Positions 10,276-24,761 of a DNA stretch of 64,000 bases are shown one piece after another. The stretch lies in assembly GCA_965221755.1 (NCBI GenBank), contig OZ244921.1:2706334-2770333 (forward strand), written 5' to 3'. The stretch comes from Candidatus Azophilus sp. (GTDB lineage: Bacteria; Pseudomonadota; Gammaproteobacteria; Pseudomonadales; Azotimanducaceae). Positions within the stretch are counted from its first letter, which is position 1. Each line of letters opens with the position of its first letter. The notes under the pieces were generated by a model. The model was not told where the DNA came from. It was given only the letters and a program-made list of their open reading frames with translations, and searched no databases. A program made the translations under genes and the position numbers.

Positions 10276-10328
10276 CGGAATAAGAGCGAATAAGCTCGGA
10301 ATAAGAGCGAATAAGCTCGGAATAAGAC
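10276..10328. repeat. 21-bp tandem repeat x2.5 (five GAATAAG cores at ~10.5-bp spacing)
   Basis: CGGAATAAGAGCGAATAAGCT at 10276 and 10297, with a partial copy at 10318. It lies 14 nt downstream of the stop of the last operon gene. Confidence 0.9.
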
Positions 10329-10341
10329 GGGCGACCGTCGT

Positions 10342-11736
10342 TTACGTGGCCTTCCAGCGCGCTCCCCGGCCATGTCCGGTCGCTCGCGCCAGACCGGTGG
10401 CCCTCAGGGCAGCCAAACACCGGCGAAGCTGAGAATCGCTTAGCTGCCCATCCAGCAGCGATCGAATTTCGCGCAATGCCAACCCACCACCGGAGTGACG
10501 CAGCAACGCCAAAACCTCATCTTGCCGCTCTGAGAGTCCGGCACCAGCTTGCCGAACGAACGACGCATCCTTGCGTCGAAACCGGACCGTTACGCAGTCG
10601 CCACGCTCCTCGATTTCAGGGCGCGGCAAACCCATTGAGGTTGCCACGTTAGCCATCCTGATCGTGCCCCTGCCCCATTCCTCGATGATGCCCCGCCGGT
10701 AGAAGGTGCGGGCGATCAGAGGATTCCATGGCCTTGATTCGTGCGGCCCGAACAGGTCATCCGGAGTCAACCCGAAGTGCAGCGGGCCGGTGGAGGTCAC
10801 TTCCAGGCGGTCGTCGTAGATGGCGAGACCGATGGAGCCGCCGCCCAGGGCGTAGTCGCGGTGGCACAGCGCATTCGCGAGCGCCTCGCGTGTCGCCAGT
10901 GGCGGGTATAGCGGCTCGTCTATGCGCTGCATGCGGCCCGACTCGAAGCGGCTCGCAATCGGCAACGTATCGCGGAGAAAACGCTCGGCGCTCGCAAGGA
11001 GCACGAAAGCGTTGCCATTGAATTGCCGGTTGTCCAGGAATTCGGATCGGTCAAGCCCACGAAAGCGCGCCACGCGAAGCAGGCATTGAGGCATATCGGA
11101 TTCGAGACGCTCGCGCTTGCCGAACAATGCTGCCGCAGCCCTGAACAGGACTCCGCCGCGCATCAGCCCCAAGCCACGCAGCAAATCCTCCGGTTCCCGG
11201 GTTCCTGGCTCGTCGAGGCGGCCGATGCGAACGGCCTCCGCGATGGTGTTGCGAATCTCGGCAAGATCGAGATCGTCCACGGTCCATCCGACGGCCGGCT
11301 GGTTTTCCCAGCGCTGCTCGGCGTGCATGCGCTCGAAGAGCATGCGGTTGTGCTCAGCGGACGACATGCTCCGGGTCGTGTTGCCGACACGCCGATAGGC
11401 GACATTTCGGTACTGGTAAGGCGGCGAAGACCCGGGGGCTATGCGAACCGCGATCACCTCGCGATTCGCGGACACTTGAATGCGTTCGATCTCCGGAAAC
11501 GCGGGTGGGTCGATGCGTTGGAACTCGGCGCTGACATCCTCGATCGTGCGATCGCCGATACTTTGGCCGACAACGGCTCCTTGAGGAGTAACGCCGAACA
11601 GCACATGGCCGCCGCGCTGGTTGAGCATCGCGCACACGGTCGCCGCGGCTTCACGTCGAGTTCCGGTAGTGGCCTTGAACTCCAGCGTTTCGGACTCGCC
11701 CAATGCGACAAGCGCCTTGATTTGATCGAGCGTCAT
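10342..11736 (-). CDS. AlbA_2 (Schlafen-like) / HATPase_c_4-type ATP-binding protein with C-terminal wHTH
   Basis: N-terminus LVALGESETLEFKATTGTRREAAATVCAMLNQRGGHVLFGV is the classic AlbA_2 'divergent AAA' start. The C-terminus LSERQDEVLALLRHSGGGLALREIRSLL is wHTH-like. The ATG overlaps the upstream stop (ATGA, 11733-11736). Confidence 0.75.
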   Translation of the reverse strand: MTLDQIKALVALGESETLEFKATTGTRREAAATVCAMLNQRGGHVLFGVTPQGAVVGQSIGDRTIEDVSAEFQRIDPPAFPEIERIQVSANREVIAVRIAPGSSPPYQYRNVAYRRVGNTTRSMSSAEHNRMLFERMHAEQRWENQPAVGWTVDDLDLAEIRNTIAEAVRIGRLDEPGTREPEDLLRGLGLMRGGVLFRAAAALFGKRERLESDMPQCLLRVARFRGLDRSEFLDNRQFNGNAFVLLASAERFLRDTLPIASRFESGRMQRIDEPLYPPLATREALANALCHRDYALGGGSIGLAIYDDRLEVTSTGPLHFGLTPDDLFGPHESRPWNPLIARTFYRRGIIEEWGRGTIRMANVATSMGLPRPEIEERGDCVTVRFRRKDASFVRQAGAGLSERQDEVLALLRHSGGGLALREIRSLLDGQLSDSQLRRCLAALRATGLARATGHGRGARWKAT

Positions 11737-12407
11737 TCGTGCGACTCTGCCGTGAGATCCGGGGCGACTCCCTGCTCCAGCGTGTCGAACGCCCGAAGCA
11801 CGAGGCGCTTAGTGCGGTACTCGCCGAAATTTTTCAATTCGTATTGCTTCAGCGATGGGAACGACGAGCCTGGCGGAGTCGCGTCCAGAATCCATTCCAA
11901 GTCAGGGCGGCTGAGCCCGTACATGTGGGCAAAGATCGCGTCGAGTTCCGATTGCAGGCAATGGCGGCGTTGCTCGTTCCATGGGAAAGGCGGTCCCTCG
12001 TAACCGATGTCTCGGGCAAATCCGGTTAACTCCTCCGATGCGTAGGATAATTGTAACGTCCGGGGAACGATCAACTCGACGTAGGGCCTGCCGCAGGCGC
12101 TGTTTTTCAGATACTCGTCCGGCGGCAATACGGGCATCTGTTTGAGAATGAAGACACTCATGTGGACGCCGCCGACGGAGAACCGAGCCGCCCAATCGAG
12201 CGGGAGGCTGTTCATGTTTGTCGAAACGAGTGCAGATGCGATAGTGCGACCGTGCTCGTAGTCGATTATCGGAGCGGTATGCCCGATGCCGCTCCGGGGC
12301 AGGTTGCCCGTGACAAGAGTTCGTTCGTTCGTGGCATTGGTAATGTCGCGAAACGCTTGAATCCATGTCGGGGAATCGCTTCGCGCGAGTGGTCGGCTGG
12401 CGATCAT
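11733..12407 (-). CDS. stand-alone paralogue of the methyltransferase C-terminal module
   Basis: The 224-aa protein aligns by eye to residues ~1198-1390 of the 1403-aa MTase. Shared blocks: ERTL(V/I)T, PRSG, GG(V/T), I(L/I)KQ(M/L)P(V/I)L, IVPR(T/V)L(Q/E)L(S/T)Y, PFPW, GE(Y/F)RTKR. There are ATGA overlaps at both ends. Confidence 0.75.
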   Translation of the reverse strand: MIASRPLARSDSPTWIQAFRDITNATNERTLVTGNLPRSGIGHTAPIIDYEHGRTIASALVSTNMNSLPLDWAARFSVGGVHMSVFILKQMPVLPPDEYLKNSACGRPYVELIVPRTLQLSYASEELTGFARDIGYEGPPFPWNEQRRHCLQSELDAIFAHMYGLSRPDLEWILDATPPGSSFPSLKQYELKNFGEYRTKRLVLRAFDTLEQGVAPDLTAESHE

Positions 12408-15400
12408 AATGAGAGCCCCGGTGACCGGGTCAGGCGGAGTGGGTATGCATTGCCGGTCATGCCGGCAGCCATCATCTCGTCGTATATCTCCAGGATCTCG
12501 CGTTTGGTACGAAATTCGCCGTAGTCACGCTCGTCATCCCGTTTCACGATGGGAAAGGTCTCCAGGATGTAGTCCACATCGTCGCGGTCCATGCCATAGA
12601 GGCGGAACAACGCTGCGTCGATCTCGCACCTCAACCGAAACCGGCGGTCCTCGCTCCACGGAAACGGTTGCTCCTCGTACCCGAGATGCTCCGCGAAGTC
12701 CTGCAACTCCGACGAAGTGTAGGTAAGCTCAAGCACGCGCGGCACAATGAAATCCGCATACATGCAACCCCATCCCATGTCGTCCTGGAACCGTGCCGGG
12801 TGAAGAATGGGAAGCTGCTTGATGATGAAATAGCTGAGATCGGTGCCGCCAACGGCGGAGCGGGCCGCGAAATCGACCACGAACGAGTTGAGGAGCGCGA
12901 CGATGAGGGGTGCCGCTTCATCGGCCGCAACGCGGAGAAGTGGCGCGCGGTCGCTCATTCCAGACCTCGGGACGGGCGCGGTGATGAGTGTTCTTTCATC
13001 CGTAGCTCTTGCTGTTTTCCGGAACGGTACAATCGCCCGGCGAGCGACACGACCGCACCTTTGCTGCCGAGCCCTGTGGCTGGCATGAGGGAGGAAATCA
13101 GGGTTCTCCGGTCGGTTGATCTCGTAATCAGCCTCAACGCGATCTCCCATCCTCGAGCCCGCAGAGCGCGTTGCGGGCCAGTTTGGCGAGCCGATCGAGT
13201 ATAATTGCTCGGCTCGGCTCGGCTCGGCTCGGCTCGGCTCGGCTCGGCTCGGCTCGGCTCGGCTCGGCTCGGCTATCAATTGTATGGTCGTTCCGGACTT
13301 GTCAAGTCTTTCCGCCACTTTTTCTTCCGGAACCCAGTATCGCGGGATGGCGACCGACTCTGGATCCGCCTTCTCTTCCTTGGTCATCGGTCGGGCCTTG
13401 CCGTTTCGGATGTCGTGCTCGGATACGCCGTCGAACGTGGCGAAGCGGTGGTCGTACTGATGAAACAGCTTGGCTTCGTAGAGCGGCAGATAGCGTTCCT
13501 GTCCTCGCACAAATACGTTGCCGTCCAATTTCCACCCGCTGTCGGCAAGTTCCTGGCGGGTTTTGAATAGCCCCGAATCGTTGGACATATCGAACATTCT
13601 GGAGAACTTCACGCCCCATGGATTCTCTTCCGCCTGCGACCCGCTGCCATCCCTCCAGAACACGCCGGCACGCTCGTACATCTTGCGGGCGATATCCATG
13701 TCGCGCCGGGTGCGGAAGATCGGGCAAGTGCGCGTGTTGGGCTTGAACAGCGAGAAATCATCCACCGACAGCGTGAATCGCCGCTCCGCCTCCTTCAATT
13801 GCTCCGCCTGGTGCAGGAAGAAGGCGAACTCGGCCTGCGGCGCCGGACGGTCCTTGCCGCTCAGCGTGAGCAGGCAGAATTTGATACGACTATCGATGCC
13901 CGGAAAAACCTTCTCCCGGTTCTCGAAATCGAACAGGCTGACGAGCCGCTGGCCGCTGACGATATGGTCGAAGTACGCCTTGGTGGAATGGTCGGTCGCG
14001 ATTCCGGTCGGCACGATCAGTCCGGCGCGGCCTCTTGGATTGAGTAGCTGAAGAAAAGTCTCCGCGAAGACGGCGTAGGTGTTCAGATCGCCCACGCCGG
14101 TGAGCGGAAACCGCCCTCCGGTGCGCGCGAACTGGCTGGCCGCCTCGGCTTCGCGCTTTGCGGTCTGGAACTCCTGGAAGAGCGCCATTTCGGCGGGCGA
14201 TGCGCCATCGCGGTCAAGGTGCCGAATCAGACGGTCCCGCGCGGCCTTGTTGGGCGCGGCCGCAATCTCGGGAGACCGCGAGGCGAAAAACTCCTGTTCC
14301 TGTAGCTTGATGCGCTCCCACGGCGGATTGCCGAGCACGGCATCGAAACCACCGTCCTGCATGATTTCGGCGAAGGCGAGATGCCAGTGGTGGAATCGGT
14401 GGCGGTCCTGCAGGTCCCGCGCAAGCTCATGGACGCCGCGGCGCGGGGGCAGTTCGTCCGCCAGCCGATCCAGATCCTGGGTTTGGGACACGATCTCCAG
14501 CGTTTCCCGCCTCTTCGGCGCGAACCATGCGCCCACGAACAGATCGGCGCGTAGCGTCTCCCGGGCGTGCGTCGCATCGTGCAGGCCCGCCGTCCAGGCT
14601 GCGCGCTTGCGTTCCACGTCGTCGAGCGTGTCTTCGGGCATGGCATCCAGATCCAGACCCGCGACTGCAACTTCCAGCACGGCGTCCTGATCGAACAGGC
14701 CGTGCTGATCCGGTTGGCGGTTGCGTTTCTTGAGATCCAGGCACGCCGCCTTGTCGTCGCCGGTCAGAGGTTTGTAGGCGTCCGCGGGAATGCCGTTCAC
14801 CATGATCTCGGGATCGAGCACGCCGACCAGGCTGTCGCCCTGAAGAATGTGGGAATCGAGGAAAGTGAGCGGTTTGCCGGGCTCCACCGTTTCCATCCAG
14901 AGCGCGGTCTTGCAGAGCTCGACGGCAAGCGGATTGCGGTCCACCCCGTAGATGCAGTGCTGCGCCACCTCGCGCAGGGCATGCTGGCGCGCAGTCTCGT
15001 CGGCGGTGTCGGCGCCGGATTCGATGCGGGCGATTTCGGCGGCGAGACGGCGCGCCGCCGCCAACAGGAAATGTCCCGATCCGCAGGCCGGATCAACGAT
15101 CCTCAAGCCCAGAATGGCGCCGCGCGGATCCTTCGGGTTGGCGGCCAGCACTTGGTCGATAACCGGATCGAGCGTGGACCGGACGAGTTCACCGACCAAG
15201 GCGGGCGGCGTGTAGTAGGAGCCGGTCAGCTTGCGCTCCGATCCCCTGACCCTCTCCTCGTTATCGTCACCGACAAAGGCGAAAACCCAGGGCGAAGCAT
15301 CCACGTCGATGACAGGGTGAAGTTCCAGAAGGCTCTCGTAAACAGACCCCAGTTCCTCGGTGCCCATGTCCCGGTAGTTGACGCGGGCGAGCGCGTTCCC

Positions 15401-16615
15401 GGAGCGGAAGAATGTCAGAGTGCGGATCGCTTCGAGCAAGTGTTCGTTGGCGATGGCCGCCGCATCGAGGTCGGGGCATTGGTCGCTGCGGAACAGACCG
15501 TCGAGAGCGGGAAGGCCGAGGCCCGGAGCGCCGCCGGCGAGTGCGCCGAAGGTGATCTCAAGACCCTGCCAGAGATCGCCGTTGCGGTCGTAGTGACGCC
15601 GCCGAAGTGCCCGCTCACGCAGACGGGAAAGGGCGTAGCCTTGCGAGTAGATGGTGCGCTGCTCGATGGTCGCCTCAGCCGTGTGCAGCAGATCGCGTTC
15701 CTCGGCGGTGAACAGGAAGAGCAGGCGGTAAACGAGCCGAAGAAGCTGCTGGAAGTAACGCTCGGGTGGGAGTGAACCGTTTTCGAGGGCTTCCCGAAGT
15801 TGAACGTTGGCCGGATGCCGCAGGAACCCGTTGCCGAGCCGTCGCAAGGTGTGGGTGACGCCGTCGCGGAGATTTTCCCGGACACGCTCGCCGGTCTCGT
15901 GCGCCTTGGCCCGCCAGGATTCGATGATGCAGCTCGCCGGCCTGCCATCGGACGGTTTCAGGCGGCTCGCATGAGCGGTGAGCCAGAGCGCGGCGAAGTC
16001 CGGGTAGAGCTGCTCCGCGAACATCAGGCCGAGATCGGCTTCGATGTAGGAGGGCCGCGTGAGGCTGGCGTTGTCGCGCAGCAGCCGGAGTTTCGTGCCG
16101 TTGGAAACCATGCCCCAGAGTGCAGTGTCCTCGGCGTTGAGATACTCCTGCATCGTGCCGTGCGCGGCCTGCCGACGGCCGTCCTGGCCGAGTCGGAGGT
16201 CGGCCTTGTCGAGATCGAAATCGTGCGTCACCAGCAGCAAGGGCACGGCGCCGTTGCATGCGCTGTGGGTCAGTTTGAAAACTCGCTCGTCCAGCGTCGC
16301 GCTTCCGGCAGGGGCAAGATCGTCGTACCCGAGCAGCAAACGCAGGAACAGCACGAGCCATTCGTCGACGCCAACCGTGGACGCGAGAAGATCGGTTCGC
16401 GGGCGACGCTCGGCATAGCGGCCGTAAAGATCGTTGCCGATGCGCCAGTACCGCGCCAGCTCCTCCTTGATCGCGAGCGATTGGGACAACCCGTAGTCGG
16501 CGCCGGTCTGGCGCGGCGCCTTCAAGGCAACCACGGTCTGAAGAAACTCGGGCGGCAGGATGCCGCCTTCGATCTTCAGCGAGGTGAACCCACAGCTCTT
16601 TCGGGTGCCCGCCAT
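12404..16615 (-). CDS. large gamma-class N6-adenine DNA methyltransferase (Eco57I/DrmMI-like)
   Basis: 1403 aa. YYTPPALV, motif I VDPACGSGHFLL (508-519), motif IV GNPPWERIK (762-770). Sits between the SNF2 gene and the CTD paralogue. Confidence 0.85.
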   Translation of the reverse strand: MAGTRKSCGFTSLKIEGGILPPEFLQTVVALKAPRQTGADYGLSQSLAIKEELARYWRIGNDLYGRYAERRPRTDLLASTVGVDEWLVLFLRLLLGYDDLAPAGSATLDERVFKLTHSACNGAVPLLLVTHDFDLDKADLRLGQDGRRQAAHGTMQEYLNAEDTALWGMVSNGTKLRLLRDNASLTRPSYIEADLGLMFAEQLYPDFAALWLTAHASRLKPSDGRPASCIIESWRAKAHETGERVRENLRDGVTHTLRRLGNGFLRHPANVQLREALENGSLPPERYFQQLLRLVYRLLFLFTAEERDLLHTAEATIEQRTIYSQGYALSRLRERALRRRHYDRNGDLWQGLEITFGALAGGAPGLGLPALDGLFRSDQCPDLDAAAIANEHLLEAIRTLTFFRSGNALARVNYRDMGTEELGSVYESLLELHPVIDVDASPWVFAFVGDDNEERVRGSERKLTGSYYTPPALVGELVRSTLDPVIDQVLAANPKDPRGAILGLRIVDPACGSGHFLLAAARRLAAEIARIESGADTADETARQHALREVAQHCIYGVDRNPLAVELCKTALWMETVEPGKPLTFLDSHILQGDSLVGVLDPEIMVNGIPADAYKPLTGDDKAACLDLKKRNRQPDQHGLFDQDAVLEVAVAGLDLDAMPEDTLDDVERKRAAWTAGLHDATHARETLRADLFVGAWFAPKRRETLEIVSQTQDLDRLADELPPRRGVHELARDLQDRHRFHHWHLAFAEIMQDGGFDAVLGNPPWERIKLQEQEFFASRSPEIAAAPNKAARDRLIRHLDRDGASPAEMALFQEFQTAKREAEAASQFARTGGRFPLTGVGDLNTYAVFAETFLQLLNPRGRAGLIVPTGIATDHSTKAYFDHIVSGQRLVSLFDFENREKVFPGIDSRIKFCLLTLSGKDRPAPQAEFAFFLHQAEQLKEAERRFTLSVDDFSLFKPNTRTCPIFRTRRDMDIARKMYERAGVFWRDGSGSQAEENPWGVKFSRMFDMSNDSGLFKTRQELADSGWKLDGNVFVRGQERYLPLYEAKLFHQYDHRFATFDGVSEHDIRNGKARPMTKEEKADPESVAIPRYWVPEEKVAERLDKSGTTIQLIAEPSRAEPSRAEPSRAEPSRAEQLYSIGSPNWPATRSAGSRMGDRVEADYEINRPENPDFLPHASHRARQQRCGRVARRAIVPFRKTARATDERTLITAPVPRSGMSDRAPLLRVAADEAAPLIVALLNSFVVDFAARSAVGGTDLSYFIIKQLPILHPARFQDDMGWGCMYADFIVPRVLELTYTSSELQDFAEHLGYEEQPFPWSEDRRFRLRCEIDAALFRLYGMDRDDVDYILETFPIVKRDDERDYGEFRTKREILEIYDEMMAAGMTGNAYPLRLTRSPGLSL
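13207..13274. repeat. pentanucleotide SSR (GCTCG)13+GCT inside the methyltransferase ORF
   Basis: Counted directly: 13 full 5-nt units from 13207 plus 3 nt. It is translated as (AEPSR)4AE at residues 1115-1136. Confidence 0.95.
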
Positions 16616-16617
16616 GC

Positions 16618-19494
16618 TCAGAGATTCGCCATGGGCATGAACACGTAGACGCCGATCTTGTCGATCGGCAGCGCCGGGACGACGTTGTAGCGCAATCCCC
16701 GCGCATCGCTGGCCTCGCGGATGCGGCGATGGTCGGAGAGCAGGCGCGCGGCCCGCTCATGGACAACACGGTCGAAAGTATCTTCCAGGGCAGGCAACGA
16801 GTCGAGCGCCTGGCGAATGAGGTGGGATTTTTGACCATCCGGCATGTTGCGGCCCGGTTCCAGCGCCAGCAGAGACAGGGCGTCCTCATCGGCCAGGAGC
16901 TCGGTCGCATCGGCGCCCCGGACGGCGAGGGCAAGGCATTCCTCGGCGAGAAGCGACCGCAAGGGGGCGTAGCGGCCGTCGCTCGCGCGGCGTTCGATCT
17001 CGATCTGGCTGCGCAGCCGCAACAGGTAGAGCACCGTGCGGGTATCGACGCCCCGCGTGAAGATGGCGCTGCATCGGGCGCCGATTTCCGGCGAGCCGGC
17101 GTCGAGCGCCTGCTCGACCACATGATCCGCAAGCGTAGCGACCAGCGGATGGGCGCGGTGGATGTAAGCCGCTCCGGCTGGCGCCGGCTGCTTGAAGGCG
17201 ACGTTGGCTGCCGCTGTGAATCGGATCGCTTCGAGGCGGTCCTGAAGCGGCTTGGGCAGGTAGGCCGTCGGCAGCCGGAAGTAGCCGTCTCGCGTATCAA
17301 GCGGTGCGCCGAGACGCGCGGCGGACAGGCGCACGAAACGGGCGACATCGTCCGGTCCGCCCAGCACGGAGACGGCCTTGCGCCATTCGGGTAGCACGTC
17401 GTCCGGTGTCAGGCGCCGCTGCGCGAAGACCGTGCGCGTCATCCGGTTGGTCGCCGTTTGCCAGGCATCGTCCACCTCGGCCTCGGTGTCGCCGAAATCG
17501 AACACGGTCTGCGCGGCCTGGGAGTGGGAGCCGCCGTGAAGCAGGACGGCCTTCATGATGGCATCCACCACCTTGTTGTTGTCGGCCGGTAGCGGAACGG
17601 AAACGCCCAGTTCCTTGCGGATCTTCTCGGCCTTGCGGAGGATCACGCGCAGCACCGCGCCGTCCACCGGATTGTTCTCGCCGTAGAGCATCAGCGCCCG
17701 AACCGTGCGGGAGGCTTGCCCGAAACGGTCGGCCCGGCCCTCGCGCTGCTCGTGGCGGGTGGGGTTCCAGGTCAGGTCGTAATGGACCACCGCGTTGAAG
17801 TGGTTCTGCAGGTTGACGCCTTCCGAGAGGCAGTCGGTAGCAACGAGTACGGGTGCGATTTCTTTCTCGAGATCCGAAAACGCCCCGACCCGTTCCTCAC
17901 GCTGGTCGGGCGTGAGTTCTCCGGTCACCACGGCGACATGGGCCTGACCGGGACTCAAGGCCCCTTTGAGTTGCTCGCCGACGTAATGCGCGGTGGCGAT
18001 GTAGCGGCAGAACACGACCGGGCGGAACCCGTCGCGCACCAACTGCGCAACCTCGTCGATGAGCGTCTTGAGCTTGGGATCGTTGCGCGGGCCGCGTAGC
18101 GCGCCCGCGCGGTTGATGAGTGCGCGCAAGGCTTCGGCGTCTTCTGCCCCCTCGACAGTGCCAGCGGGCACGCTCTCCGCCAGCGAGAGCGAATCATCCT
18201 CCGTTTCATCCATGACCGTTTCGGCCGCCGTCCGGTCCAGGCTGTCGAGTTGCGCCTGTTCGGTCTCGCCCTCGGCGGCCTGCAAGCGCGTGCGCAGCGC
18301 CAGTGACGCGGCGGCGGGGCTGGAGGACGCACAGCGCAGCAACGCGAGCGCGGCCCACCAGGACATCCGCTGCTGAAGCCGGGTGCCGCCCTCTGCGCGT
18401 CGGACCATGGTCCGGGCGTAGGCAAGCACATCGTCGAACAGGCGGCCCCATGCGCCGGTCAGCCGGTAGGTCGCCTCGCGGCTTTCGCGAACCGGGAAAC
18501 CGGCATCGTCCTTCCACTCGGCGATGTCGCCGCGGCGGCGCTGCACGAAATGCAGCGCGAGCCGGTCGCGAAGGCGGCGGCGCAGTTCGCCCTCGGGCAT
18601 TTCCGCCAGCTCCACGAACTTCGGGTCCAGCAGGGCCAGCAGGTTGTGAAACGCCGTATCGTCGCCCGAATGCGGCGTGGCCGTGAGGAAGACCATCCCG
18701 CGAAGCGGCTCGCTTTCGGCCAAACCCTTGAGAAGCTGGTAGCGCTGGTGGCGGGTGCTCGTGTTCGCCTGCATGCAGGCGTGGGCCTCGTCCACGATGA
18801 CGAACTCCGGGCAGGCCCGCAGGAAGTCGCCGCGCCTGCGGTCGGACTTGATGTAGTCGAGTGACACGACCGTGAAGGGATGAACCTCGAACAGCGACTC
18901 GTCCGGGCGCAGACCCCGCTCCAGGCGGGTGGCCGTTCCAGTGCGCACGACCTCGGCGTCGATGCCGAACTTCTCCGAGAGTTCCTGCTGCCATTGCTCG
19001 CACAGGTGGGGCGGGCATATGATTGCGAGCCGCTCGATCTCTCCGCGATCGAGGAGTTCCCGGGCGATCAGCCCGGCCTCGATGGTCTTGCCGATGCCGA
19101 CATCGTCGGCGACGAGCAGCCGCACCGTGTCGAGCTTCAGCGCCATGAGCAGCGGCACGAGTTGATAGGCGCGCGGTTCGACATTGAGGTTGCCGAAGCT
19201 CCGGAACGGCCCGGCGCCGGCGCGTAGCTTGAGGCGCAGCGCGTCCCGCAGGAGAAGCGCGGCGTCGTGCGGACCCGGTTTTTCGGGATCCGGCAGATCG
19301 AACGTGGCGGGCGCGGGCGCTTCGGGTTCGAGTGGAAGATAGATGAGGGCGGCGTCATCCTCGGCGCCGCCGAGCGGCCGGAGCTTCAGGAGGTTTTCGC
19401 GCGTCTCCGGCAGCACGACCCATTCCCGGTCGCGCGCCCTGACCAAATCCCCGGGTTTGAACGCGACAGCAGTTTCCGTTGCCATGTCCGGCAT
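16618..19494 (-). CDS. SNF2-family ATPase/helicase (DrmD-like)
   Basis: 958 aa. YQLVPL...LLVADDVGIGKTIEAG (motif I), VIVDEAHAC (DEAH), VATDCLSEGVNLQ, HEQREGRADRFGQ (motif VI). Confidence 0.85.
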   Translation of the reverse strand: MPDMATETAVAFKPGDLVRARDREWVVLPETRENLLKLRPLGGAEDDAALIYLPLEPEAPAPATFDLPDPEKPGPHDAALLLRDALRLKLRAGAGPFRSFGNLNVEPRAYQLVPLLMALKLDTVRLLVADDVGIGKTIEAGLIARELLDRGEIERLAIICPPHLCEQWQQELSEKFGIDAEVVRTGTATRLERGLRPDESLFEVHPFTVVSLDYIKSDRRRGDFLRACPEFVIVDEAHACMQANTSTRHQRYQLLKGLAESEPLRGMVFLTATPHSGDDTAFHNLLALLDPKFVELAEMPEGELRRRLRDRLALHFVQRRRGDIAEWKDDAGFPVRESREATYRLTGAWGRLFDDVLAYARTMVRRAEGGTRLQQRMSWWAALALLRCASSSPAAASLALRTRLQAAEGETEQAQLDSLDRTAAETVMDETEDDSLSLAESVPAGTVEGAEDAEALRALINRAGALRGPRNDPKLKTLIDEVAQLVRDGFRPVVFCRYIATAHYVGEQLKGALSPGQAHVAVVTGELTPDQREERVGAFSDLEKEIAPVLVATDCLSEGVNLQNHFNAVVHYDLTWNPTRHEQREGRADRFGQASRTVRALMLYGENNPVDGAVLRVILRKAEKIRKELGVSVPLPADNNKVVDAIMKAVLLHGGSHSQAAQTVFDFGDTEAEVDDAWQTATNRMTRTVFAQRRLTPDDVLPEWRKAVSVLGGPDDVARFVRLSAARLGAPLDTRDGYFRLPTAYLPKPLQDRLEAIRFTAAANVAFKQPAPAGAAYIHRAHPLVATLADHVVEQALDAGSPEIGARCSAIFTRGVDTRTVLYLLRLRSQIEIERRASDGRYAPLRSLLAEECLALAVRGADATELLADEDALSLLALEPGRNMPDGQKSHLIRQALDSLPALEDTFDRVVHERAARLLSDHRRIREASDARGLRYNVVPALPIDKIGVYVFMPMANL

Positions 19495-22400
19495 CAGCCG
19501 TTTCCGTTCATCGATGGGGTACCCGATCCGAACACCCAGGCATACCGGTCGACGATGCCCGGCCAGGATGAGCGGTCGGCCGGGAAGCGCACCACGGTGT
19601 AGCCGGCGTCGACGAGGCGGCGGTCGATAGCTTCGTCGGCGCTGTCCCGGACCGCCCCTTGATGTTGTGGACCGTCAACGTAAACCAGGATCTGCGAGTC
19701 GGTGTAGGCGAAATCGGGGCGGGTCGCGTAGATTTCGAGCAACGGCTGAGCCTTGTCCGGCAAGCGATAGCCATTCGACTCGATGAAACGCAGCCACGCC
19801 TTCTCCAGGGAGGACGATGAAACGTTCAACAGTTCGTTGTAGCTGTCGCCGGCGGCAACTTCGTGCTCCAGACTCTTGCGCGAACTGCGCGTGAACCGGC
19901 AAAGCAGTTCGAGCATCTCGCCGTCTTGCCGGTCGATAAGGGGATGCTCCGGCTGGTTGTAGTAGCTCAACAGGCAGCGGTAGCAGCCGGCTTCGCAATC
20001 GGTGTCGAGATTCTCAAGATCGTCCGCTCCGGACCACTCGCCCGACTTCGAGGAGTAATGGCAAACTTCCAGAGCGCGGCGGGCAATGCGCGCCAAGGCC
20101 TCGGGGTCGGTGGCCAGACGCGTCAGGACGCCCGCGCCTCCCTCGGCGGCTTCGTAAAGCAGGACCGTCGCACGGTTGTCCCTGTCGGGCAGGGGCTCGG
20201 CGGCCAGTTCGGCCTCCTCCAGTTGAAACTCCTGCTCGATGCCCCGCTTGAGAGCGTACTGCAGAGAGACCATGGCGGTTTCGGACAAATTGACCGCTGG
20301 ACGCACGACGAGGACGTTCCGTGTGTCCTCGACGAAGGGTGTGATGCGCTCGACCGTCTTGCCCTCGCGCACGGCGTCGTCTTCGGCATCGGTCGGCGCC
20401 TGGGCGTCCTTGCTCCATTCGCCGGTGTTGGTGTCCACGCTGAAGCCGTAAACGGTTTTCTCCCTGCGCCGCCGCCATCCCAGGTTGATGCGCCACAGCA
20501 TGGCCGCCGGGCCATAGCGGAGTTCCATCAGCGTCTCGCCGCCCTCCTCGATGGCGATGCCCTCGGCCCGCGCCCGGCCATTTTCCTCGCTGAACCGGAG
20601 GGTTGTAATCATTTCGTAGCCTTGTCGCTGGCGTTCCTCCTCGTCCGAGGTGATGCGGTTCGCGCGCTGGGTCGAGACCTGCTCGATACGATACAGATTC
20701 GGAACGATGCGCCCGCCGTCGAGACGGGCGCCGCAACTGACGCAGCGCTCGTAGTCCTTCTGATCCCCGAAATGCCCGTAACCGCAAGCGGGACAGAGGC
20801 GGGCCGCCTGTACGGGGAGCTTGGCGGATGCCCTCACTCCGCCCTCGTCGCGCACCGAGAGAATGGCGCGCCGCACCCGATAGGTGCTGCCTTCGTGATA
20901 GATGATGGACTGGGGCCCGAACTCGGTGAGTCCGAGGAACCGCGGACGGCTCAGGAAGGCGTCGCGAGCCACCTTCTCGCGGCGGCCGGGAACGAAGGCC
21001 ATCAGCGGCAGGCGCGGGAAGTTGTATCCCGGCAGAAACCCCTCGGCGGCCAAATAGCGGTAGGTGTAGAAGTCCGAGTTCATGGTCGGCCTGCTGTCGA
21101 GGAGCAGGTTCTGCTGCGTGTACGCCTCGTCGTAACGCGCCTTGGCCTCCCTGCGTTCCCGTTCGGTGGCGGCGGCGTTGTTGACGACATCGTTTGCGAA
21201 CTTCATCTGGTTCGAGGTCGCGCGGTAGAGGGAACGCCATCGGTCGAACGATTTGTGGAAGCGGCGTTCGGCGGAGTTCATCGTGCCATCGAGCCACGTT
21301 TCCGTGTGCCAGGGCGCGGCCTGCCCGGAGAGGTCGGATGTGAGAGTGGACAGAATGCGCTTCCCTCGCCGCCCGGCCGCGGCCACGGCCCGGTCGGCGC
21401 CCACTTGCAGTGCGACCTCCTCATGCACGGGAAGGTTGTCGAGCCTGTCCATGTCGAGCACTTCGCGCACGGAATAACCGAGCTTTACGCCCGTCTCCGC
21501 GAGCCAGACGGCCTGTAGGTGGCTGCGGATCAGGTCCTCGTTGGCGAGATCGATGTTGGGCGGATTGACCGCGCCGGCCACCATGCGTGTCGGATCGGAG
21601 AAGAAGTACTGGTCGTGCGGCGACCTCGCCGCGCAATAGGTGACCACCAGCGCCGGCTGGCCGCTGCGGCCCGCCCGTCCGCTGCGTTGGGCGTAGTTCG
21701 CCGGAGTCGGCGGCACGTTGCGCATGTACACCGTGTTGAGCGTGGAGATGTCGACGCCGAGTTCCATGGTCGGCGAACAGAAAAGTATAGGCAGCCCGGC
21801 GGGCTCGACCTGGCCGTCGACGACGCGCTCGCCCTCCAGTCCCTTGCGGAAACGCGCTTCCCGCACCTCGCGCACGTCGGAGTCGACCTGGGCGGTGTGT
21901 TCGCGCGCCTCAAGCTGGTGCAGCAGGCGGTCGTCGCTGACCAGGAGACCCGCGACGTTGCGGTAGAGGCTGCGGAAAAACGCATTGGTCGGCGTGCTGT
22001 CTTCGGAAGCCTCGTCGGCCAGACGCCATTCGAGCACCGAGCCGTCGATGCGGTAGCCGGTGCGTTCGGCGTCGAGGCCCGCGGGTTCGACGTAGCCGTG
22101 GGTCGTCAGCACGGCAAGTACATCGTCGATGAGATCGTTGTACACGCCCTCGTCGAACCTGGACGGATAGCACGGATTTTCCGCTCCCCAGAACGCCTGG
22201 GACTTGATCTTGCGGCCGAATGCGGAGCGGTGGGAGACATGGAGGGTGCGGAACTCGTCCCGGCGGCCGCCGCGGCTCGGTCTGGGGACCATGAAGGCAT
22301 GCGTGAAAAGGCGTTCGTCCTCCGACAGGCCCCAGGGTTCCCTCAACTCGTTGAAGCTTCGATTGCGGATCCGCTCCTGAAAGTTCGGATCGAGATAGAT

Positions 22401-24761
22401 CGTCTTGATGCAGAGCGCCCGGCGCATGCGCTCCAAAAGATCGTTAACGAGAGCGAAGCGGCGTTCGGGCGAAATGGAGCCGAGCAAGGGGTGGCGTTTT
22501 CGCCATTCCTCCTCGTCCCGGCAGCAGTCCATGAGATCCCGGTATTCGATCTTCAGCAGCCGCAACTGCTCGAGATTCGGGTTGGTGATGCGCCAGCCGC
22601 GTTGCAGATCGAAATACAGCCGATACCCGAGCACGTCGCGCAGCGCCTTCAGCGTGTTCTGGGCCTTGACCCCCTTGGCCTGGGGGTTGGATGCGTAGTC
22701 CGCCGGATCCAGACGCAGGCAATCGAGGACGCGTTGCGTGAGCATGTCGTCGGTCAGGCGCGCTCCGTCGGCGGTCGGGATGGACGCGAGCAGGGCGCCA
22801 CGCAAGAGCAGAATCTGTATGAAGTCATTGAAATGCCCGGCCTGGAGGCTGGCGTCCTGCCGGTTGTCGGTGAACGCAAGGAGCTTTTTCGTCCGCTCGT
22901 CGAGGTCGGCTCCGATGAGATGCTTCAGCGAGGACAGCGCCAATACGGTGGTTGCCGAACTCCGGCCCTCGCTGGACAGGCCGGAGAGCTTGGTGAGCTC
23001 GCTGCGAACGCTGCCGTCGAAATAGGCGTCGCAGTCCGGATTCAGGCAAAAGCGGAACGGTCCAGGAATGAACCGCGCCGGCAAACCGTCCGCGGCCACG
23101 CCGCCCGTGGTGTCGACGTGGACGGAGAGCGGGCTGTACTTGCGGAAATGGGGCTTGATCCGGGCCTGGTCGTCGCGAAACTCCAGCCACTCCTCCGGAT
23201 ATCGGGAATCAGATTCGGTCGAATCGAACACGCCGGAAGGGTCGGGCATCAGGTAGCCGTACTGGATTTCGTCGTCGTCGTTGGAGCGTTCCGACAGGTC
23301 GCGCGGTTTAAATTCCTGCGGTTGCTTACCGGCCAGTTTCGCCCAAACGGGCAGGTATTCCTGGCCGCACCCCCTGCAAAAGCTAAGCGAGTACAGCGGG
23401 CGCTGGCGGTCGCCGGGCTTGAATTGCTGGCCGTGCAACGTGATGTACCGTTCGCCTGGCGCTTCGAGAGTCGAATACGCGTTCCAGGCGCCGCTGATGA
23501 ACTGATGCAGGCGGAACGCGAAGAAACTCGCGCCGCGCTCGTTACGGCTGCGGTGCGCGGCCAGCAGGAAGCTCGCGAGGTAGTTTCGGCACAGCCCGTC
23601 ATCAAGGCCGCTCTCGTTCGCCAAACGGCTCGAAGCGTCCAGCAGGGTCAGGGGCCGCGAAATCCGCACAATCCTGCCGTCGCGTTCCTCGAGGCCGAGA
23701 TTGCGCTCCACCCAAGCGGCTGCGGCGTGTTCCGCAAGATGCTCATGGGTGGGATCGTCCGGGACACCTTGTTCGATGGCGGTGCGCAGCTCGGACCCGG
23801 TCGGAGATGGACTGGAGCTGGTCACCGGGCTCAGCGTCTCGGTAACAACGTTCCCGGGATCGACGGAAACGCCGAACAAGCGGCTCGCCACGCACGCGAT
23901 GGTCGTGTTCCGCTCTTCAAGAGAGCCTTCGGTGGCCATGGTTGCGGAGGTGCCTATGCACAGCAGACGGTCGTTGAAACGCTCGCGCACCCGCCGCACC
24001 AGCATGGCGACATCGGCGCCCTGGCGCCCGCGATACGTATGCAGCTCGTCCAGAACCAGGAAGCGAAGCCCCGCCGCGTGTTCGCGAACCGCCTTGTCGG
24101 TTTCGTGGAAGCGCGTCATGAGCAATTCCAGCATGACGTAGTTGGTCAGCAGGATGTCGGGCGGGTTCTTGGCGATGCGCTCGCGCTCCTCGTTCGATTC
24201 CTGTCCGGTATAGCGCGCAAAAGTAACCGGCTCCCCGCCTTCGCCGTAGCCGAGGCGCAAATATCGCTCCAGCTCTTCGCGCTGGCTGTTGCACAGGGCG
24301 TTCATCGGATAGACGACGATGGCGGTGATGCCCTTGCGGGCGTCTCCCGCCCGCTTGGCGCGCAGCACGTCATCGACGATGGGAATGAAATAGGCGAGCG
24401 ACTTGCCGGAACCGGTGCCGGTGGTGAGCACGTAGCTTTCGCCGCGTTGGGCGATCTCTATCGCGTCGGTCTGGTGGCGATGCAAGCGAAGCCGTTTGCC
24501 AAACGTGTCGGCGGGATGCTTGAGCCGGAAGATTTTCGCGCACTCCTCATCGAGCACGCCGTCGGCGACGAGGTCGTCGATGTATCCGCCCGGCTTGAAA
24601 TTGGGATTCAACTGGATGAGTGGAGCCGGCCAGAAACGACCGGCGTCGTATTCCGAGTCCACTGTCCGGGAGATGTCCTCGGAGCGGATTCGGGTAAAGC
24701 TTCGGGAGAATCGTGCGTACTCGGCGATGAGTTCCTCGCGAAACGCGAATACGTCCATCAC
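19494..24761 (-). CDS. DExH helicase fused to a DUF1998 Zn-ribbon module and a C-terminal DUF559/Vsr-like nuclease domain (DrmA+DrmB-like / DruE-like)
   Basis: 1755 aa. GTGSGKS (115-121), DELH (238-241), SAT (272-274), [10 protein letters not shown] (1025-1034). DUF1998 signature: [21 protein letters not shown] (1323-1343), [12 protein letters not shown] (1589-1600). DUF559-like part: [29 protein letters not shown] (1681-1726). AAGGA SD before GTG/ATG 24761/24758. Confidence 0.85.

What the first reader, a model, noticed from the sequence alone, without database searches (positions are those of the whole stretch)
13207..13274. Pentanucleotide (GCTCG)13 microsatellite inside the methyltransferase ORF: candidate phase-variation switch
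SEEN: 13 perfect 5-nt units plus 3 nt (68 nt) lie inside the 1403-aa MTase gene. In the present state they are translated in frame as (AEPSR)4AE (residues 1115-1136). The tract lies in a stretch (residues 1112-1198) between the catalytic body and the C-terminal module that has no counterpart in the downstream paralogue. Because the unit length is not a multiple of 3, gain or loss of one unit shifts the frame and removes the C-terminal ~270 aa. ESTABLISHED: tetra- and pentanucleotide tracts of this length in mod/hsd genes are the classical slipped-strand mechanism of phase-variable R-M systems (phasevarions) in Haemophilus, Neisseria and Helicobacter. INFERENCE: this is an ON/OFF, or full-length/truncated, switch for the methylase of a DISARM-like system. 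I am not aware that this has been described. It is surprising because losing methylation while restriction stays active should be self-toxic, unless the MTase is itself required for restriction.
Basis: partly seen in the sequence, partly recalled or inferred. Interest (0 to 1): 0.8.

Follow-up and report, generated by a model that had tools for sequence, protein, structure and literature searches.

The report
Repeat-driven frame switch in defence methylase
A perfect 5-base repeat inside the DNA methylase gene of an anti-phage defence island changes length between near-identical strains, and each change shifts the reading frame and gives the enzyme a different tail, so it very probably acts as a reversible genetic switch for the defence system.

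Summary
(GCTCG)13.6 is perfect at 13207-13274, inside the 1403-aa N6-adenine methyltransferase gene (12404-16615, minus strand).

The switch interpretation is strongly supported by comparison with relatives.
- Genes with about 98.6% identical DNA and identical flanks carry 6.8, 13.6, 23.8 or 32.8 units, and they sit in different frames.
- Every member of this methylase clade has a simple repeat at exactly this site (30 distinct loci, about 146 proteins).
- The repeat units differ in sequence and in length: 1, 2, 4, 5, 7, 8, 10, 13 or 14 nt, never a multiple of 3.
- More distant relatives have no repeat and are always in frame.

The three frames after the repeat give three tails: a full C-terminal module, a short tail, and a conserved truncated "cap". 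The cap shows coding-type selection in its own frame. The C-terminal module stays intact in loci that are out of frame.

The system is best described as ARMADA Type I, a relative of DISARM. Published work on ARMADA II and class 1 DISARM shows that losing the methylase switches defence off without self-killing.

No heterogeneity within a single population was tested. I rate this a new variant of a known kind, with interest about 0.7.

The parts
13207..13274 (-). The simple sequence repeat. It is (CGAGC)13.6 on the coding strand and GCTCG on the plus strand. It is 68 nt long and encodes (AEPSR)4AE in the present frame. This is the proposed slipped-strand switch.
   Evidence: Relatives carry 6.8, 23.8 or 32.8 units between identical flanks.
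12404..16615 (-). The methyltransferase gene (ArmB/DrmMI/PglX-like N6-adenine MTase) in its present full-length frame, 1403 aa. SAM motif DPACGSGHF lies near residues 508-516 and NPPW at 763-766.
   Evidence: Pfam Eco57I, N6_Mtase and MmeI_Mtase. PADLOC DrmMI 8.7e-75 and type IIG models. Translation.
13275..16615 (-). The constant body of the MTase (residues 1-1114), upstream of the repeat. It ends with the clade-wide anchor YLPLYEAKLFHQYDHRFATF...PRYWVPE..RLDK.
   Evidence: Alignments A1, A2 and A5. 98.6% nt identity to L001 and L083, and 96.2% to L082, over the 3 kb upstream of the repeat. The whole shared stretch 24783-13207 is 98.9% identical to L001.
12955..13206 (-). The alternative reading frame reached with +1 or -2 units. 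It is 83 codons plus a stop and contains a truncated 'cap' copy of the module start, WEIALRLITRSTDRRTLISSLMPATGLGSKGAVV (core about 13042-13143). The product would be 1221 aa with 14 units.
   Evidence: Homologous caps in 22 loci show coding-type substitution in their own frame.
13134..13205 (-). The third frame, reached with -1 or +2 units. It gives a 23-codon tail, IILDRLAKLARNALCGLEDGRSR, then a stop. The product would be 1158 aa with 12 units.
   Evidence: Many database homologues end in the equivalent tail, LAELARNSLSG..SSP.
12404..13042 (-). C-terminal module B (residues about 1192-1403). It is fused in frame only when the repeat length puts it in frame. It starts with FRKTARATDERT and is followed by a helical domain.
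   Evidence: BLASTP against the downstream paralogue. tblastn mapping. No counterpart in the 98.9%-identical L001.
11733..12407 (-). Module C, a 224-aa ORF whose ATG overlaps the MTase stop codon (ATGA). It is a paralogue of module B. In relatives L001, L082 and L083 it is the module that the repeat fuses to the MTase.
   Evidence: At least 120 clusters of intact homologues about 220 aa long. It hits the C-terminus of a type IIG model.
16618..19494 (-). SNF2/RapA-type helicase (ArmA/DrmD/BrxHII-like), 958 aa.
   Evidence: Pfam SNF2-rel_dom and Helicase_C. PADLOC DpdE, DrmD and BrxH. NCBIfam DrmD at 345 bits, below the cutoff of 610.
19494..24761 (-). YprA-like DEAD helicase with DUF1998/MZB and a C-terminal Vsr-type (DUF559) nuclease domain (ArmC-like), 1755 aa.
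   Evidence: Pfam DEAD, Helicase_C, MZB and DUF559. PADLOC DruE, DpdJ and DrmA. ARMADA Type I description.
10342..11736 (-). Schlafen AlbA_2 plus HATPase_c_4 protein, 464 aa. It is the last gene of the shared island and is also present in L001 and L083. Its role is unknown.
10287..24783 (.). The extent of the island shared with relative L001. The flanks outside it are unrelated, so the island sits in a different genomic context in each genome.
   Evidence: blastn.

Best explanation
The pentanucleotide tract is a contingency locus, that is, a hypermutable simple repeat. It sits in a loop-like linker of the methyltransferase of an ARMADA Type I (DISARM-related) defence island.

Proposed mechanism:
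- Slipped-strand mispairing during replication adds or removes 5-nt units.
- Five is not divisible by three, so each step moves translation into another of three frames downstream.
- With 13 units (or 13 plus or minus 3) the enzyme is full length and carries the roughly 210-aa C-terminal module B.
- With one unit more, it ends in an 83-aa tail that contains a conserved truncated 'cap' copy of the module start.
- With one unit fewer, it ends after 23 residues.

Shown here:
- The tract is perfect and far longer than chance allows.
- Its length differs among near-identical genes and changes the frame.
- The same site carries a frame-shifting repeat in the whole clade.
- The downstream module stays intact when it is out of frame.
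- The cap evolves like coding sequence in its own frame.

Inferred:
- The changes occur at high frequency and reversibly within a population.
- The full-length form is the active one.
- The other forms switch defence, and genome methylation, off or alter them. By analogy with ARMADA II and class 1 DISARM this would happen without autoimmunity. The population would then hedge between protection and its costs or side effects.
For: 1. The tract is real and not due to chance.
2. The in-silico frame outcomes are 1158, 1403 and 1221 aa.
3. WIN, L083/L084, L082 and L001 share an identical 40-nt left flank but carry 68, 34, 119 and 164 nt of CGAGC. L001 and L083 are 98.6% and 98.4% identical on the two sides of the tract, yet one is out of frame (1198 aa) and the other in frame (1420 aa).
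4. Other clusters at 90% identity or more show the same pattern, with 10-nt, 5-nt and 4-nt units.
5. All 30 distinct clade loci carry a repeat at this site. Unit lengths are 5 (13 loci), 4 (6), 1 (4), 10 (3), 8 (2), 2 (2) and 7 (1), with at least 17 different unit sequences and none divisible by 3. Among 146 proteins the peptide periods are 4, 5, 7, 8, 10 and 14 only.
6. Relatives outside the clade have the module 7-16 nt after the anchor, always in frame and without a repeat.
7. All three states are sampled. Proteins: 44 full, 31 cap, 38 short. Loci: 5 full, 9 cap, 11 none.
8. Modules remain intact in loci that are out of frame, and at least 120 clusters of intact roughly 220-aa module ORFs exist.
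9. In 25 truncated caps the nt differences by codon position are 0.49, 0.26 and 0.64. pN/pS is 0.51 in the caps' own frame against 0.89 and 1.57 in the other two.
10. Four short-read contigs end inside the repeat.
11. ArmB is required for ARMADA II defence and its deletion is viable. Class 1 DISARM shows no autoimmunity without its methylases.
Against: - No read-level or single-cell data were available, so switching inside one population has not been shown.
- WIN equals L165 and L083 equals L084, tract included, across different samples. The tract is therefore stable enough to give one consensus per strain, although these may be the same clone.
- Only about 20-30% of sampled genes are in the full-length frame. 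This would also fit relaxed selection.
- The function of the C-terminal module is unknown. The structure models were poor or partial and had no PDB match.
- ARMADA Type I itself has not been tested experimentally. The need for the methylase is extrapolated from Type II.
Confidence: 0.8

Rival explanations
1. The switch is a three-way selector of C-terminal isoforms, not a plain ON/OFF switch. The full-length, capped short and uncapped short forms would each have a distinct activity. For example, one might be competent for defence, one might only methylate or act as a scaffold, and one might be null. The conserved alternative-frame cap would then be a functional product. This refines the best explanation rather than excluding it.
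For: The frame pattern (full, cap, none) occurs in 14 of 25 loci, and (cap, cap, full) in 2. Caps show the codon-position pattern 0.49/0.26/0.64 and pN/pS of 0.51 in their own frame (smaller set). The cap is homologous to the module start that non-repeat homologues read straight through (P0012 and P0069). The N-terminal 50 residues of the isolated module are modelled with low confidence, as expected if they pack against the enzyme body.
Against: Cap sequences were selected by a motif, which makes the test partly circular. Cap length is constrained by the overlapping frame in any case. There is no biochemical or structural evidence on what a capped short form does. Five loci lack a recognisable full frame, partly because contigs are truncated or the regular expression missed them.
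Confidence: 0.35
2. The tract is a neutral or mildly harmful microsatellite that has repeatedly broken the gene. The out-of-frame copies would then be decaying pseudogenes, and there would be no selected switch.
For: Most sampled genes are not in the full-length frame. Defence genes are often lost. The tract count is stable between samples of the same strain.
Against: A repeat is present at the same site in every clade member, with at least 17 unrelated unit sequences and no unit length divisible by 3. Downstream modules are intact and conserved in out-of-frame loci. Near-identical genes include both in-frame and out-of-frame states. Relatives without a repeat are never out of frame.
Confidence: 0.07
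3. The repeat encodes a flexible, low-complexity peptide linker, (AEPSR)n, that is selected at the protein level. On this view length variation only tunes linker length.
For: The region is predicted to be disordered, and steps of three units preserve the frame.
Against: The peptide is not conserved: AEPSR, AEQSR, DPTRP, EPNRT, SSIEHRA, GRQA, poly-P, poly-G and others occur. The DNA repeats are perfect. Unit lengths are never multiples of 3. Frames after the repeat differ between strains.
Confidence: 0.02
4. The main role of the repeat and the duplicated module starts is to provide homology for exchanging C-terminal cassettes. This would be a recombinational change of specificity, analogous to the inversion shufflons of DrmMI-like genes, rather than frame switching.
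For: Identity between the window and L001 breaks exactly at the repeat: 98.9% upstream, unrelated for about 840 nt, then 89%. Two cassette types (A'+B'+C versus cap+B) occur on near-identical backbones. Module starts are repeated two or three times per locus. Programmed inversions are known in DrmMI-like genes.
Against: The locus has no inverted repeats and no recombinase. Exchange looks like a rare evolutionary event, whereas unit number varies among otherwise identical cassettes. This view does not explain why unit lengths divisible by 3 are avoided.
Confidence: 0.1
5. The differences in unit number are assembly or sequencing artefacts of repeat tracts in metagenome assemblies.
For: Repeats are hard to assemble, and several short-read contigs end in the tract.
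Against: Identical tract lengths were recovered in independent samples (WIN=L165, L083=L084). Called proteins from many projects and platforms show the same three tails. Differences of 10-26 units are far larger than typical errors.
Confidence: 0.02

Closest known systems
Phase-variable R-M methyltransferases driven by simple sequence repeats: Type III mod and Type I hsdM/hsdS 'phasevarions' of Haemophilus, Neisseria, Helicobacter, Streptococcus suis and Actinobacillus
   Same: A perfect intragenic repeat with a unit that is not a multiple of 3 (tetra- and pentanucleotides are classical). Unit number differs among strains and toggles the frame of an N6-adenine MTase. Loss of the MTase also disables restriction, so it is not suicidal (surveys in PMC5909438 and PMC7383803).
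   Different: Here the repeat sits about 80% of the way into a 1400-aa single-chain PglX/DrmMI-like MTase of a helicase-based defence island, not near the 5' end of mod or hsd. The hosts are uncultured environmental, largely sponge-associated bacteria of several phyla, not host-adapted pathogens. The repeat type turns over across the clade. Frames after the repeat encode alternative conserved tails, not just early stops.
Pgl/BREX type 2 of Streptomyces coelicolor: phase variation through a G tract in pglX
   Same: A defence system that is not a classical R-M system is switched by the length of a repeat inside its PglX-type MTase. The proposed benefit is to ease selection on phage and reduce cost (PMC4365076, citing Sumby & Smith 2003). 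Some members of the present clade also use G/C homopolymers.
   Different: It is a different system (PglW/X/Y/Z) and uses a homopolymer only. No three-frame tail architecture has been reported for it. PglX is toxic without PglZ.
Cj0031, a Type IIG R-M enzyme of Campylobacter jejuni with a poly-G tract
   Same: A large single-chain MTase-containing enzyme whose expression is phase-varied by a simple repeat (cited in PMC9881135).
   Different: It uses a homopolymer and is a stand-alone Type IIG enzyme with its own nuclease. No helicase partners and no alternative tails are known.
Programmed inversions in Class 1 DISARM DrmMI and DISARM-like loci (Milman et al. 2023, PMC9881135)
   Same: The same gene family and the same kind of locus, including loci with a single CDS encoding the YprA helicase and DUF1998. 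The 3' part of the MTase is the variable part, with extra partial copies downstream.
   Different: That mechanism is site-specific inversion between inverted partial copies with a recombinase. Here the copies are direct, lie in different reading frames and are selected by a repeat. No inverted repeats or invertase are present.
ARMADA Type I / Type II (YprA-family paper, bioRxiv 10.1101/2025.09.15.676423; EHEC OI-172 paper, PMC13463889)
   Same: Gene content and order match Type I: a YprA-like helicase with DUF1998 and a C-terminal Vsr nuclease, then an SNF2/BrxHII-like helicase, then a PglX-like MTase. In Type II the MTase is essential for defence, and armB is the most variable gene of the island.
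   Different: Neither paper mentions repeats, frameshifts or phase variation (0 hits). Type I has not been tested experimentally. The extra module ORF and the Schlafen/ATPase gene are not part of the published definition.
Repeat-mediated 'C-terminal sequence switching' (Helicobacter canadensis, PMC2823697)
   Same: Repeats near the 3' end change the C-terminal sequence rather than abolishing the protein (title and abstract).
   Different: That case involves homopolymers in unrelated genes of one pathogen. Alternative tails conserved across phyla have not been described for it.

Membership tests
SSR-mediated phase-variable (contingency) locus | A perfect simple sequence repeat within the reading frame whose unit length is not a multiple of 3 | tested here: met
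   (CGAGC)13.6, 100% perfect. Shuffles give at most 17 nt.
SSR-mediated phase-variable (contingency) locus | Unit number differs among closely related strains and changes the frame | tested here: met
   6.8, 13.6, 23.8 and 32.8 units with identical flanks, giving frames for 1420, 1403, 1183 and 1198 aa. Other clusters at 90% identity behave the same way.
SSR-mediated phase-variable (contingency) locus | Frequent, reversible length changes within a clonal population | not testable with these tools
   No reads were available. Consensus tracts are identical in replicate samples. Indirect support: modules stay intact in out-of-frame loci.
SSR-mediated phase-variable (contingency) locus | The repeat is conserved as a feature across homologues while its sequence is free to change, which is evidence that mutability itself is selected | tested here: met
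   30 of 30 distinct clade loci have a repeat at this site, with at least 17 unit sequences and unit lengths 1, 2, 4, 5, 7, 8 and 10. Proteins also indicate 13 and 14. None is divisible by 3.
Phasevarion (epigenetic regulon controlled by a phase-variable MTase) | Switching changes genome methylation and the expression of a set of genes | not testable with these tools
   No methylome or transcriptome data.
ARMADA Type I | YprA-like DEAD/DEAH helicase with DUF1998 and a C-terminal Vsr-type nuclease | tested here: met
   Pfam DEAD, Helicase_C, MZB (DUF1998) and DUF559 at residues 1683-1729. Definition.
ARMADA Type I | BrxHII-like SNF2/RapA helicase and PglX-like MTase following the YprA gene, in that order | tested here: met
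   Gene order on the minus strand is 19494-24761, 16618-19494, 12404-16615. PADLOC BrxHI|BrxHII 8e-58. NCBIfam gives weak PglX hits.
ARMADA Type I | The YprA protein falls in the ARMADA Type I clade of the YprA tree | not tested
ARMADA Type I | Anti-phage activity | not testable with these tools
   Only Type II has been tested experimentally.
DISARM Class 1 | Separate DrmA (helicase) and DrmB (DUF1998) proteins plus DrmC (PLD) | tested here: not met
   The helicase and DUF1998 are fused in one 1755-aa protein that carries a Vsr-type nuclease, not PLD. No PLD gene is present in the island.
DISARM Class 1 | DrmD and DrmMI reach the curated family thresholds | tested here: not met
   NCBIfam DrmD scores 345 bits against a cutoff of 610. 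There is no MTase family at cutoff. PADLOC DrmMI is the best hit, but the match is partial.
Type IIG restriction-modification enzyme | A nuclease domain in the same polypeptide as the MTase and the target recognition domain | tested here: inconclusive
   PADLOC type IIG models match the MTase and C-terminal parts. No nuclease domain was detected in residues 1-440 by Pfam.
Programmed-inversion shufflon of DrmMI-like genes | Inverted partial gene copies and a nearby recombinase | tested here: not met
   Only two weak inverted pairs of 17-19 nt were found, and the module copies are direct. No recombinase lies in the island.

The most novel reading that the evidence does not exclude
A clade of ARMADA-type defence methylases has evolved a three-frame 'gearbox', and it has spread across at least five bacterial phyla, largely in marine sponge microbiomes. 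A hypermutable repeat of any unit length not divisible by 3 selects among three overlapping, individually selected C-terminal reading frames. These give a full domain, a truncated cap and a null tail, and so produce functionally distinct enzyme isoforms. The repeat may also serve as the junction at which whole C-terminal cassettes are exchanged between lineages. This would be a new way of encoding alternative protein tails in bacteria, and the first phase-variable ARMADA/DISARM-type system.
Probability: 0.35. Interest if true: 0.85.

Novelty: new variant of a known kind. Interest (0 to 1): 0.72.

Why it matters
- **Reach of the mechanism.** Repeat-driven phase variation of methylases is textbook biology for a few host-adapted pathogens. 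Finding it as a clade-wide, evolutionarily maintained feature of a helicase-based defence system would extend it far beyond pathogens. The hosts here are uncultured bacteria of several phyla, many from sponge microbiomes.
- **A handle on ARMADA Type I.** Natural 12-, 13- and 14-unit alleles are ready-made isogenic ON/OFF/altered variants of a system that has not been characterised. They could show whether the methylase supplies target recognition, what the C-terminal domain does, and whether the system has a fitness cost.
- **An unusual coding arrangement.** The conserved alternative-frame 'cap' suggests that overlapping frames are kept for use after a frameshift.
- **A practical warning.** About two thirds of these genes appear in databases as 'truncated' methylases plus orphan 220-aa ORFs. 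Defence-system finders and annotation pipelines will misread them.

Tried and rejected
- **The 1393-aa ORF as the paralogue.** I compared the MTase with the ORF at 50466-54647. There is no real similarity, and it is an HrpA-type helicase. The paralogue is the 224-aa ORF.
- **Sequence search of the PDB.** A single sequence and a profile gave only weak hits to the MTase core (CamA, MmeI) and nothing for the C-terminal module.
- **AlphaFold2 of residues 771-1403.** The model was poor (mean pLDDT 55). The repeat and linker region is disordered, and the model was not usable for fold search.
- **AlphaFold2 of the 224-aa module.** The helical part is well modelled (pLDDT about 90 for residues 100-220) but the N-terminal 50 residues are not. 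Foldseek against the PDB gave no hit with E below 0.4. The function of the module remains unassigned.
- **Pfam on the modules at E up to 10.** Nothing found. My guess that the module is the second half of a TaqI_C/HsdS-like recognition domain is therefore untested.
- **Inversion shufflon.** Rejected, because there are no meaningful inverted repeats.
- **In-frame inserts in distant relatives.** I looked for tandem cap duplications in distant relatives that have 300-450-nt in-frame inserts. The regular expression failed on most of them. The one that could be read (L019) has an unrelated helical insert. Not pursued.
- **Literature searches.** I searched for DISARM, DrmMI or ARMADA together with phase variation or repeats, and for sponge symbionts together with phase variation. 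No prior description was found.
- **Organism.** It could be resolved only to an uncultured Gammaproteobacteria MAG.
Full report
**1. The observation.**
The sequence at 13207-13274 is GCTCG repeated 13.6 times without a single mismatch. In 100 shuffles of the window the longest period-5 tract was 17 nt at most, against 68 nt observed.

The tract lies in the 1403-codon ORF 12404-16615 on the minus strand. There it is read as CGAGC units and encodes I-(AEPSR)4-AE at residues 1115-1136.

The protein is an N6-adenine methyltransferase. It matches Pfam Eco57I, N6_Mtase and MmeI_Mtase. Its best PADLOC hit is DrmMI, followed by type IIG models.

Editing the unit number in silico gives the following:
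- 12 units: 1158 aa.
- 13 units: 1403 aa.
- 14 units: 1221 aa.
- Steps of three units restore the frame.

The ORF immediately downstream (11733-12407, 224 aa) has an ATG that overlaps the MTase stop codon. It is a paralogue of MTase residues 1195-1381, at 41% identity and E=6e-49.

**2. The neighbourhood, and what the system is.**
Upstream on the same strand lie two genes:
- a 958-aa SNF2/RapA-type helicase (16618-19494);
- a 1755-aa protein with DEAD, Helicase_C, MZB/DUF1998 and a C-terminal DUF559 (Vsr-type endonuclease) domain (19494-24761).

Downstream lie the 224-aa module ORF and a Schlafen AlbA_2/HATPase_c_4 protein.

None of the proteins reaches a curated NCBIfam threshold. DrmD scores 345 bits against a cutoff of 610. 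The DISARM hallmarks of separate DrmA and DrmB proteins plus a PLD protein are absent.

The island (window 10287-24783) recurs in a 4.1-Mb contig, L001. Identity is 98.9% up to the repeat and 89% after a replaced segment. The flanks are unrelated.

The host is an uncultured gammaproteobacterium. Its LeuRS clusters with Gammaproteobacteria MAGs. The rest of the window is ordinary chromosome, with LeuRS, HrpA, CobT and RNase D.

**3. The repeat varies among near-identical genes.**
The 90%-identity cluster around the closest homologue contains proteins of 1158, 1183, 1198, 1403 and 1420 aa. I fetched the DNA for four of them. All have the identical 40-nt left flank.

| Locus | CGAGC tract (nt) | Units | Protein (aa) | Frame state |
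|---|---|---|---|---|
| L083 (= L084) | 34 | 6.8 | 1420 | full length |
| window (= L165) | 68 | 13.6 | 1403 | full length |
| L082 | 119 | 23.8 | 1183 | short tail |
| L001 | 164 | 32.8 | 1198 | short tail |

L001 and L083 are 98.6% and 98.4% identical on the two sides of the tract, yet one is out of frame and the other in frame.

The same behaviour is seen in other clusters:
- an Albidovulum cluster with a 10-nt unit (1219, 1239 and 1425 aa);
- a cluster with DKTRQ x3 versus x7;
- AEPSR x2, x4 and x7;
- a 4-nt unit x2 versus x3 (1398 versus 1151 aa).

Replicate samples give identical tracts (L083=L084; window=L165, 100% over 6212 nt). This argues against assembly noise.

**4. The site is a repeat hotspot across the clade, and only there.**
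I mapped a conserved anchor (YLPLYEAKLFHQYDHRFATF...PRYWVPE) and the C-terminal module in 164 loci from genomes and metagenomes. Two architectures separate cleanly.

In relatives below about 55-60% anchor identity, the module follows the anchor after 7-16 nt, or occasionally after a non-repetitive in-frame insert. It is always in frame 0, and there is no repeat.

In the clade of the window there are 30 distinct loci. A perfect repeat sits about 20 codons after the anchor in every one. Its unit length and sequence differ from lineage to lineage:

| Unit length (nt) | Distinct loci |
|---|---|
| 5 | 13 |
| 4 | 6 |
| 1 (G9-G10, C10-C11) | 4 |
| 10 | 3 |
| 8 | 2 |
| 2 | 2 |
| 7 | 1 |

There are at least 17 unrelated unit sequences.

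Among 146 homologous proteins the peptide period is 5 (69 proteins), 7 (10), 4 (3), 8 (2), 10 (2) or 14 (2). It is never 2, 3, 6, 9 or 12. One protein (P0084) shows a 13-residue period by eye, which the perfect-repeat criterion did not count. A period of p residues is what a p-nt unit gives when p is not divisible by 3.

No unit length divisible by 3 was found among roughly 30 independent unit types. This is the opposite of what a protein-level linker or a neutral microsatellite inside a gene would show.

Four short-read contigs end inside the tract.

The clade spans several phyla:
- Gammaproteobacteria (Arenicellales);
- Rhodobacterales (Albidovulum, Aestuariivita);
- Bryobacterales;
- Rhodothermales;
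- Verrucomicrobiae;
- Binataceae;
- Gemmatimonadota;
- Caldilineaceae.

Many of the best metagenome hits come from Mediterranean sponge metagenomes. The accessions LXNI, LXNJ, MKWU and MPMP were identified through PMC5099237 and PMC5649159.

**5. What the three frames encode.**
The same nucleotides after the repeat are recognisable in all three frames across the clade.
- **Full frame.** It runs on for 250-304 codons into a complete C-terminal module.
- **Cap frame.** It gives 38-104 codons that begin with a truncated copy of the module start. The consensus is LAFRxITxATxERTxIxxMIPxxxLGHSGxxI. In the window it reads WEIALRLITRSTDRRTLISSLMPATGLGSKGAVV.
- **Short frame.** It stops after 16-43 codons, with a tail of the type LAELARNSLSG..SSP.

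The triple (full, cap, none) is found in 14 of 25 loci, and (cap, cap, full) in two.

In the full-length frame, the cap DNA is translated out of frame as a spacer without stops.

The cap is not a decaying remnant. In 25 caps from 22 loci the pairwise nucleotide differences are 0.49, 0.26 and 0.64 at codon positions 1, 2 and 3 of the cap's own frame. pN/pS is 0.51 there, against 0.89 and 1.57 in the other two frames. An earlier set of 8 loci showed the constrained frame switching from the cap frame to the full frame exactly where the next module start begins. One caveat applies: the caps were located with a protein motif, which favours their own frame.

All three states are well represented. 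Among proteins there are 44 full, 31 cap and 38 short. Among loci there are 5 full, 9 cap and 11 none.

Modules in out-of-frame loci are intact single HSPs. At least 120 sequence clusters of intact module ORFs about 220 aa long exist. This is what one expects if the out-of-frame condition is temporary.

**6. Cassette exchange.**
In L001, L082 and L083 the repeat is followed by a cap (A'), a second truncated start (B') and module C fused in one frame.

In the window, about 840 nt (13207-12369) replace A' and B' with a different cap plus a complete module B. This segment resembles the Albidovulum locus L012. Module C is left as a separate ORF.

Identity drops from 98.9% to 89% across this junction. 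Recombination at or near the repeat and at the conserved module start therefore also shapes the locus. This looks like a rare event, whereas unit number varies on otherwise identical cassettes. There are no inverted repeats and no recombinase. The inversion mechanism described for DrmMI-like genes (PMC9881135) does not apply here.

**7. How it most likely works.**
Shown here:
- a hypermutable-type tract;
- length differences between strains that move the frame;
- clade-wide maintenance of a frame-shifting repeat;
- preservation of the downstream frames.

Inferred:
- slipped-strand mispairing changes the unit number at high frequency and reversibly within populations;
- each gain or loss of one unit moves the methylase from the full-length form to the cap form (+1) or the short form (-1);
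- the full-length form is the active one.

Published data on related systems argue against this.
- In ARMADA Type II, deleting any gene, armB included, abolishes defence.
- The ArmB NPPW mutant is also defence-negative, and the mutants grow.
- In class 1 DISARM from Serratia, loss of both methylases causes no autoimmunity.

By analogy, methylase OFF means defence OFF. The likely benefit is bet-hedging between protection and its cost or side effects. These could include blocked DNA uptake, the cost of expression, or pressure on phage to evolve counter-defence, as argued for Pgl. Whether the switch also acts as an epigenetic regulator (a phasevarion) cannot be judged here.

I could not assign a function to the C-terminal module. 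It has no Pfam hit. The full C-terminal model is poor. The isolated module has a confident helical part but no PDB neighbour.

**8. Comparison with what is known, and novelty.**
The mechanism class is well known. Examples are the repeats in Type III mod and Type I hsd genes, poly-G in Cj0031, and the G tract in pglX of Pgl. Programmed inversions are known to vary the 3' part of DrmMI-like genes.

I found no description of repeat-driven phase variation in DISARM, DrmMI or ARMADA. The ARMADA papers contain no mention of phase variation or frameshifts.

Three things are new:
- the system concerned and the hosts;
- the turnover of repeat types at a fixed site across phyla;
- the three-frame tail architecture with a selected alternative-frame cap.

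I classify it as a new variant of a known kind.

**9. Verdict.**
- My confidence that this is a selected, repeat-driven frame switch is about 0.8.
- My confidence that the cap form is a distinct functional isoform is about 0.35.
- The main gap is direct evidence of length heterogeneity within one population and of its phenotypic effect.

Noticed in passing
window 9984-9998 (minus strand; small ORF from the ATG at 10061): There is a G15 homopolymer (C15 on the plus strand) at the 3' end of a small ORF that has a good Shine-Dalgarno sequence. With G15 or G14 the product is a 26-27-aa peptide. With G13 or G16 it is a 73-74-aa protein (MAKVKLNSPPEGLANPTEPEIGGGGGVDNPPEKRAWRKPSIRLMHIGTTESAKFT...). 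This is a second candidate repeat switch, just outside the shared island.
   Followed up: partly
window 10276-10327: A 21-nt direct repeat (x2.5, perfect) lies immediately after the stop codon of the Schlafen/ATPase gene. Homology with L001 ends at this point (10287). It may mark an island end or an attachment site.
   Followed up: no
window 13207-12369 compared with L001 13505-13757: Identity to the closest relative breaks exactly at the repeat: 98.9% upstream, an unrelated cassette of about 840 nt, then 89%. This indicates replacement of the cassette after the repeat by a type otherwise seen in an Albidovulum (alphaproteobacterial) locus.
   Followed up: partly
L081, L088, L094, L101 (contig ends): Short-read metagenome contigs stop inside the repeat at the homologous site. 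Assemblies and gene callers therefore systematically fragment this gene family. Databases hold many 'truncated' methylases and orphan ORFs of about 220 aa.
   Followed up: partly
L103 2793-2816; L108 2801-2837: Dinucleotide repeats (AG x12, GA x18.5) occupy the same site in two metagenome loci. Dinucleotide repeats are a less common unit length than the tetra- and pentanucleotides at this site.
   Followed up: no
L005 12452-13128 (Bryobacterales): About 676 nt lie between the repeat and the full module, against about 265 nt elsewhere. The frame that should reach the module stops after 89 codons. This suggests an insertion or a degraded copy in this lineage.
   Followed up: no
L001, L082, L083 and window flanks: The same island sits next to different genes in different genomes: a class I aminoacyl-tRNA synthetase gene (Pfam tRNA-synt_1c) in L001, a pyridine-nucleotide oxidoreductase in L082, and peptidase M28 in L083. 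In the window it is next to a 262-aa ORF with no Pfam hit and a weak DDE_Tnp_1_assoc match at 25526-26236. The Schlafen gene is missing in L082. The island appears to be mobile.
   Followed up: no
window 35597-35997; 2636-2835; 42913-43017: Larger tandem repeats occur elsewhere in the window: 145 nt x2.8 (99%), just downstream of the leuS gene end; 45 nt x4.4; and 51 nt x2.1.
   Followed up: no
P0170 (1458 aa) and L012, L096, L098: The module-start unit of about 35 aa can occur three times. In P0170 the copies are in series in one frame. In L012, L096 and L098 there is one copy in each of the three frames. This points to repeated partial duplication of this segment during the evolution of the switch.
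   Followed up: partly
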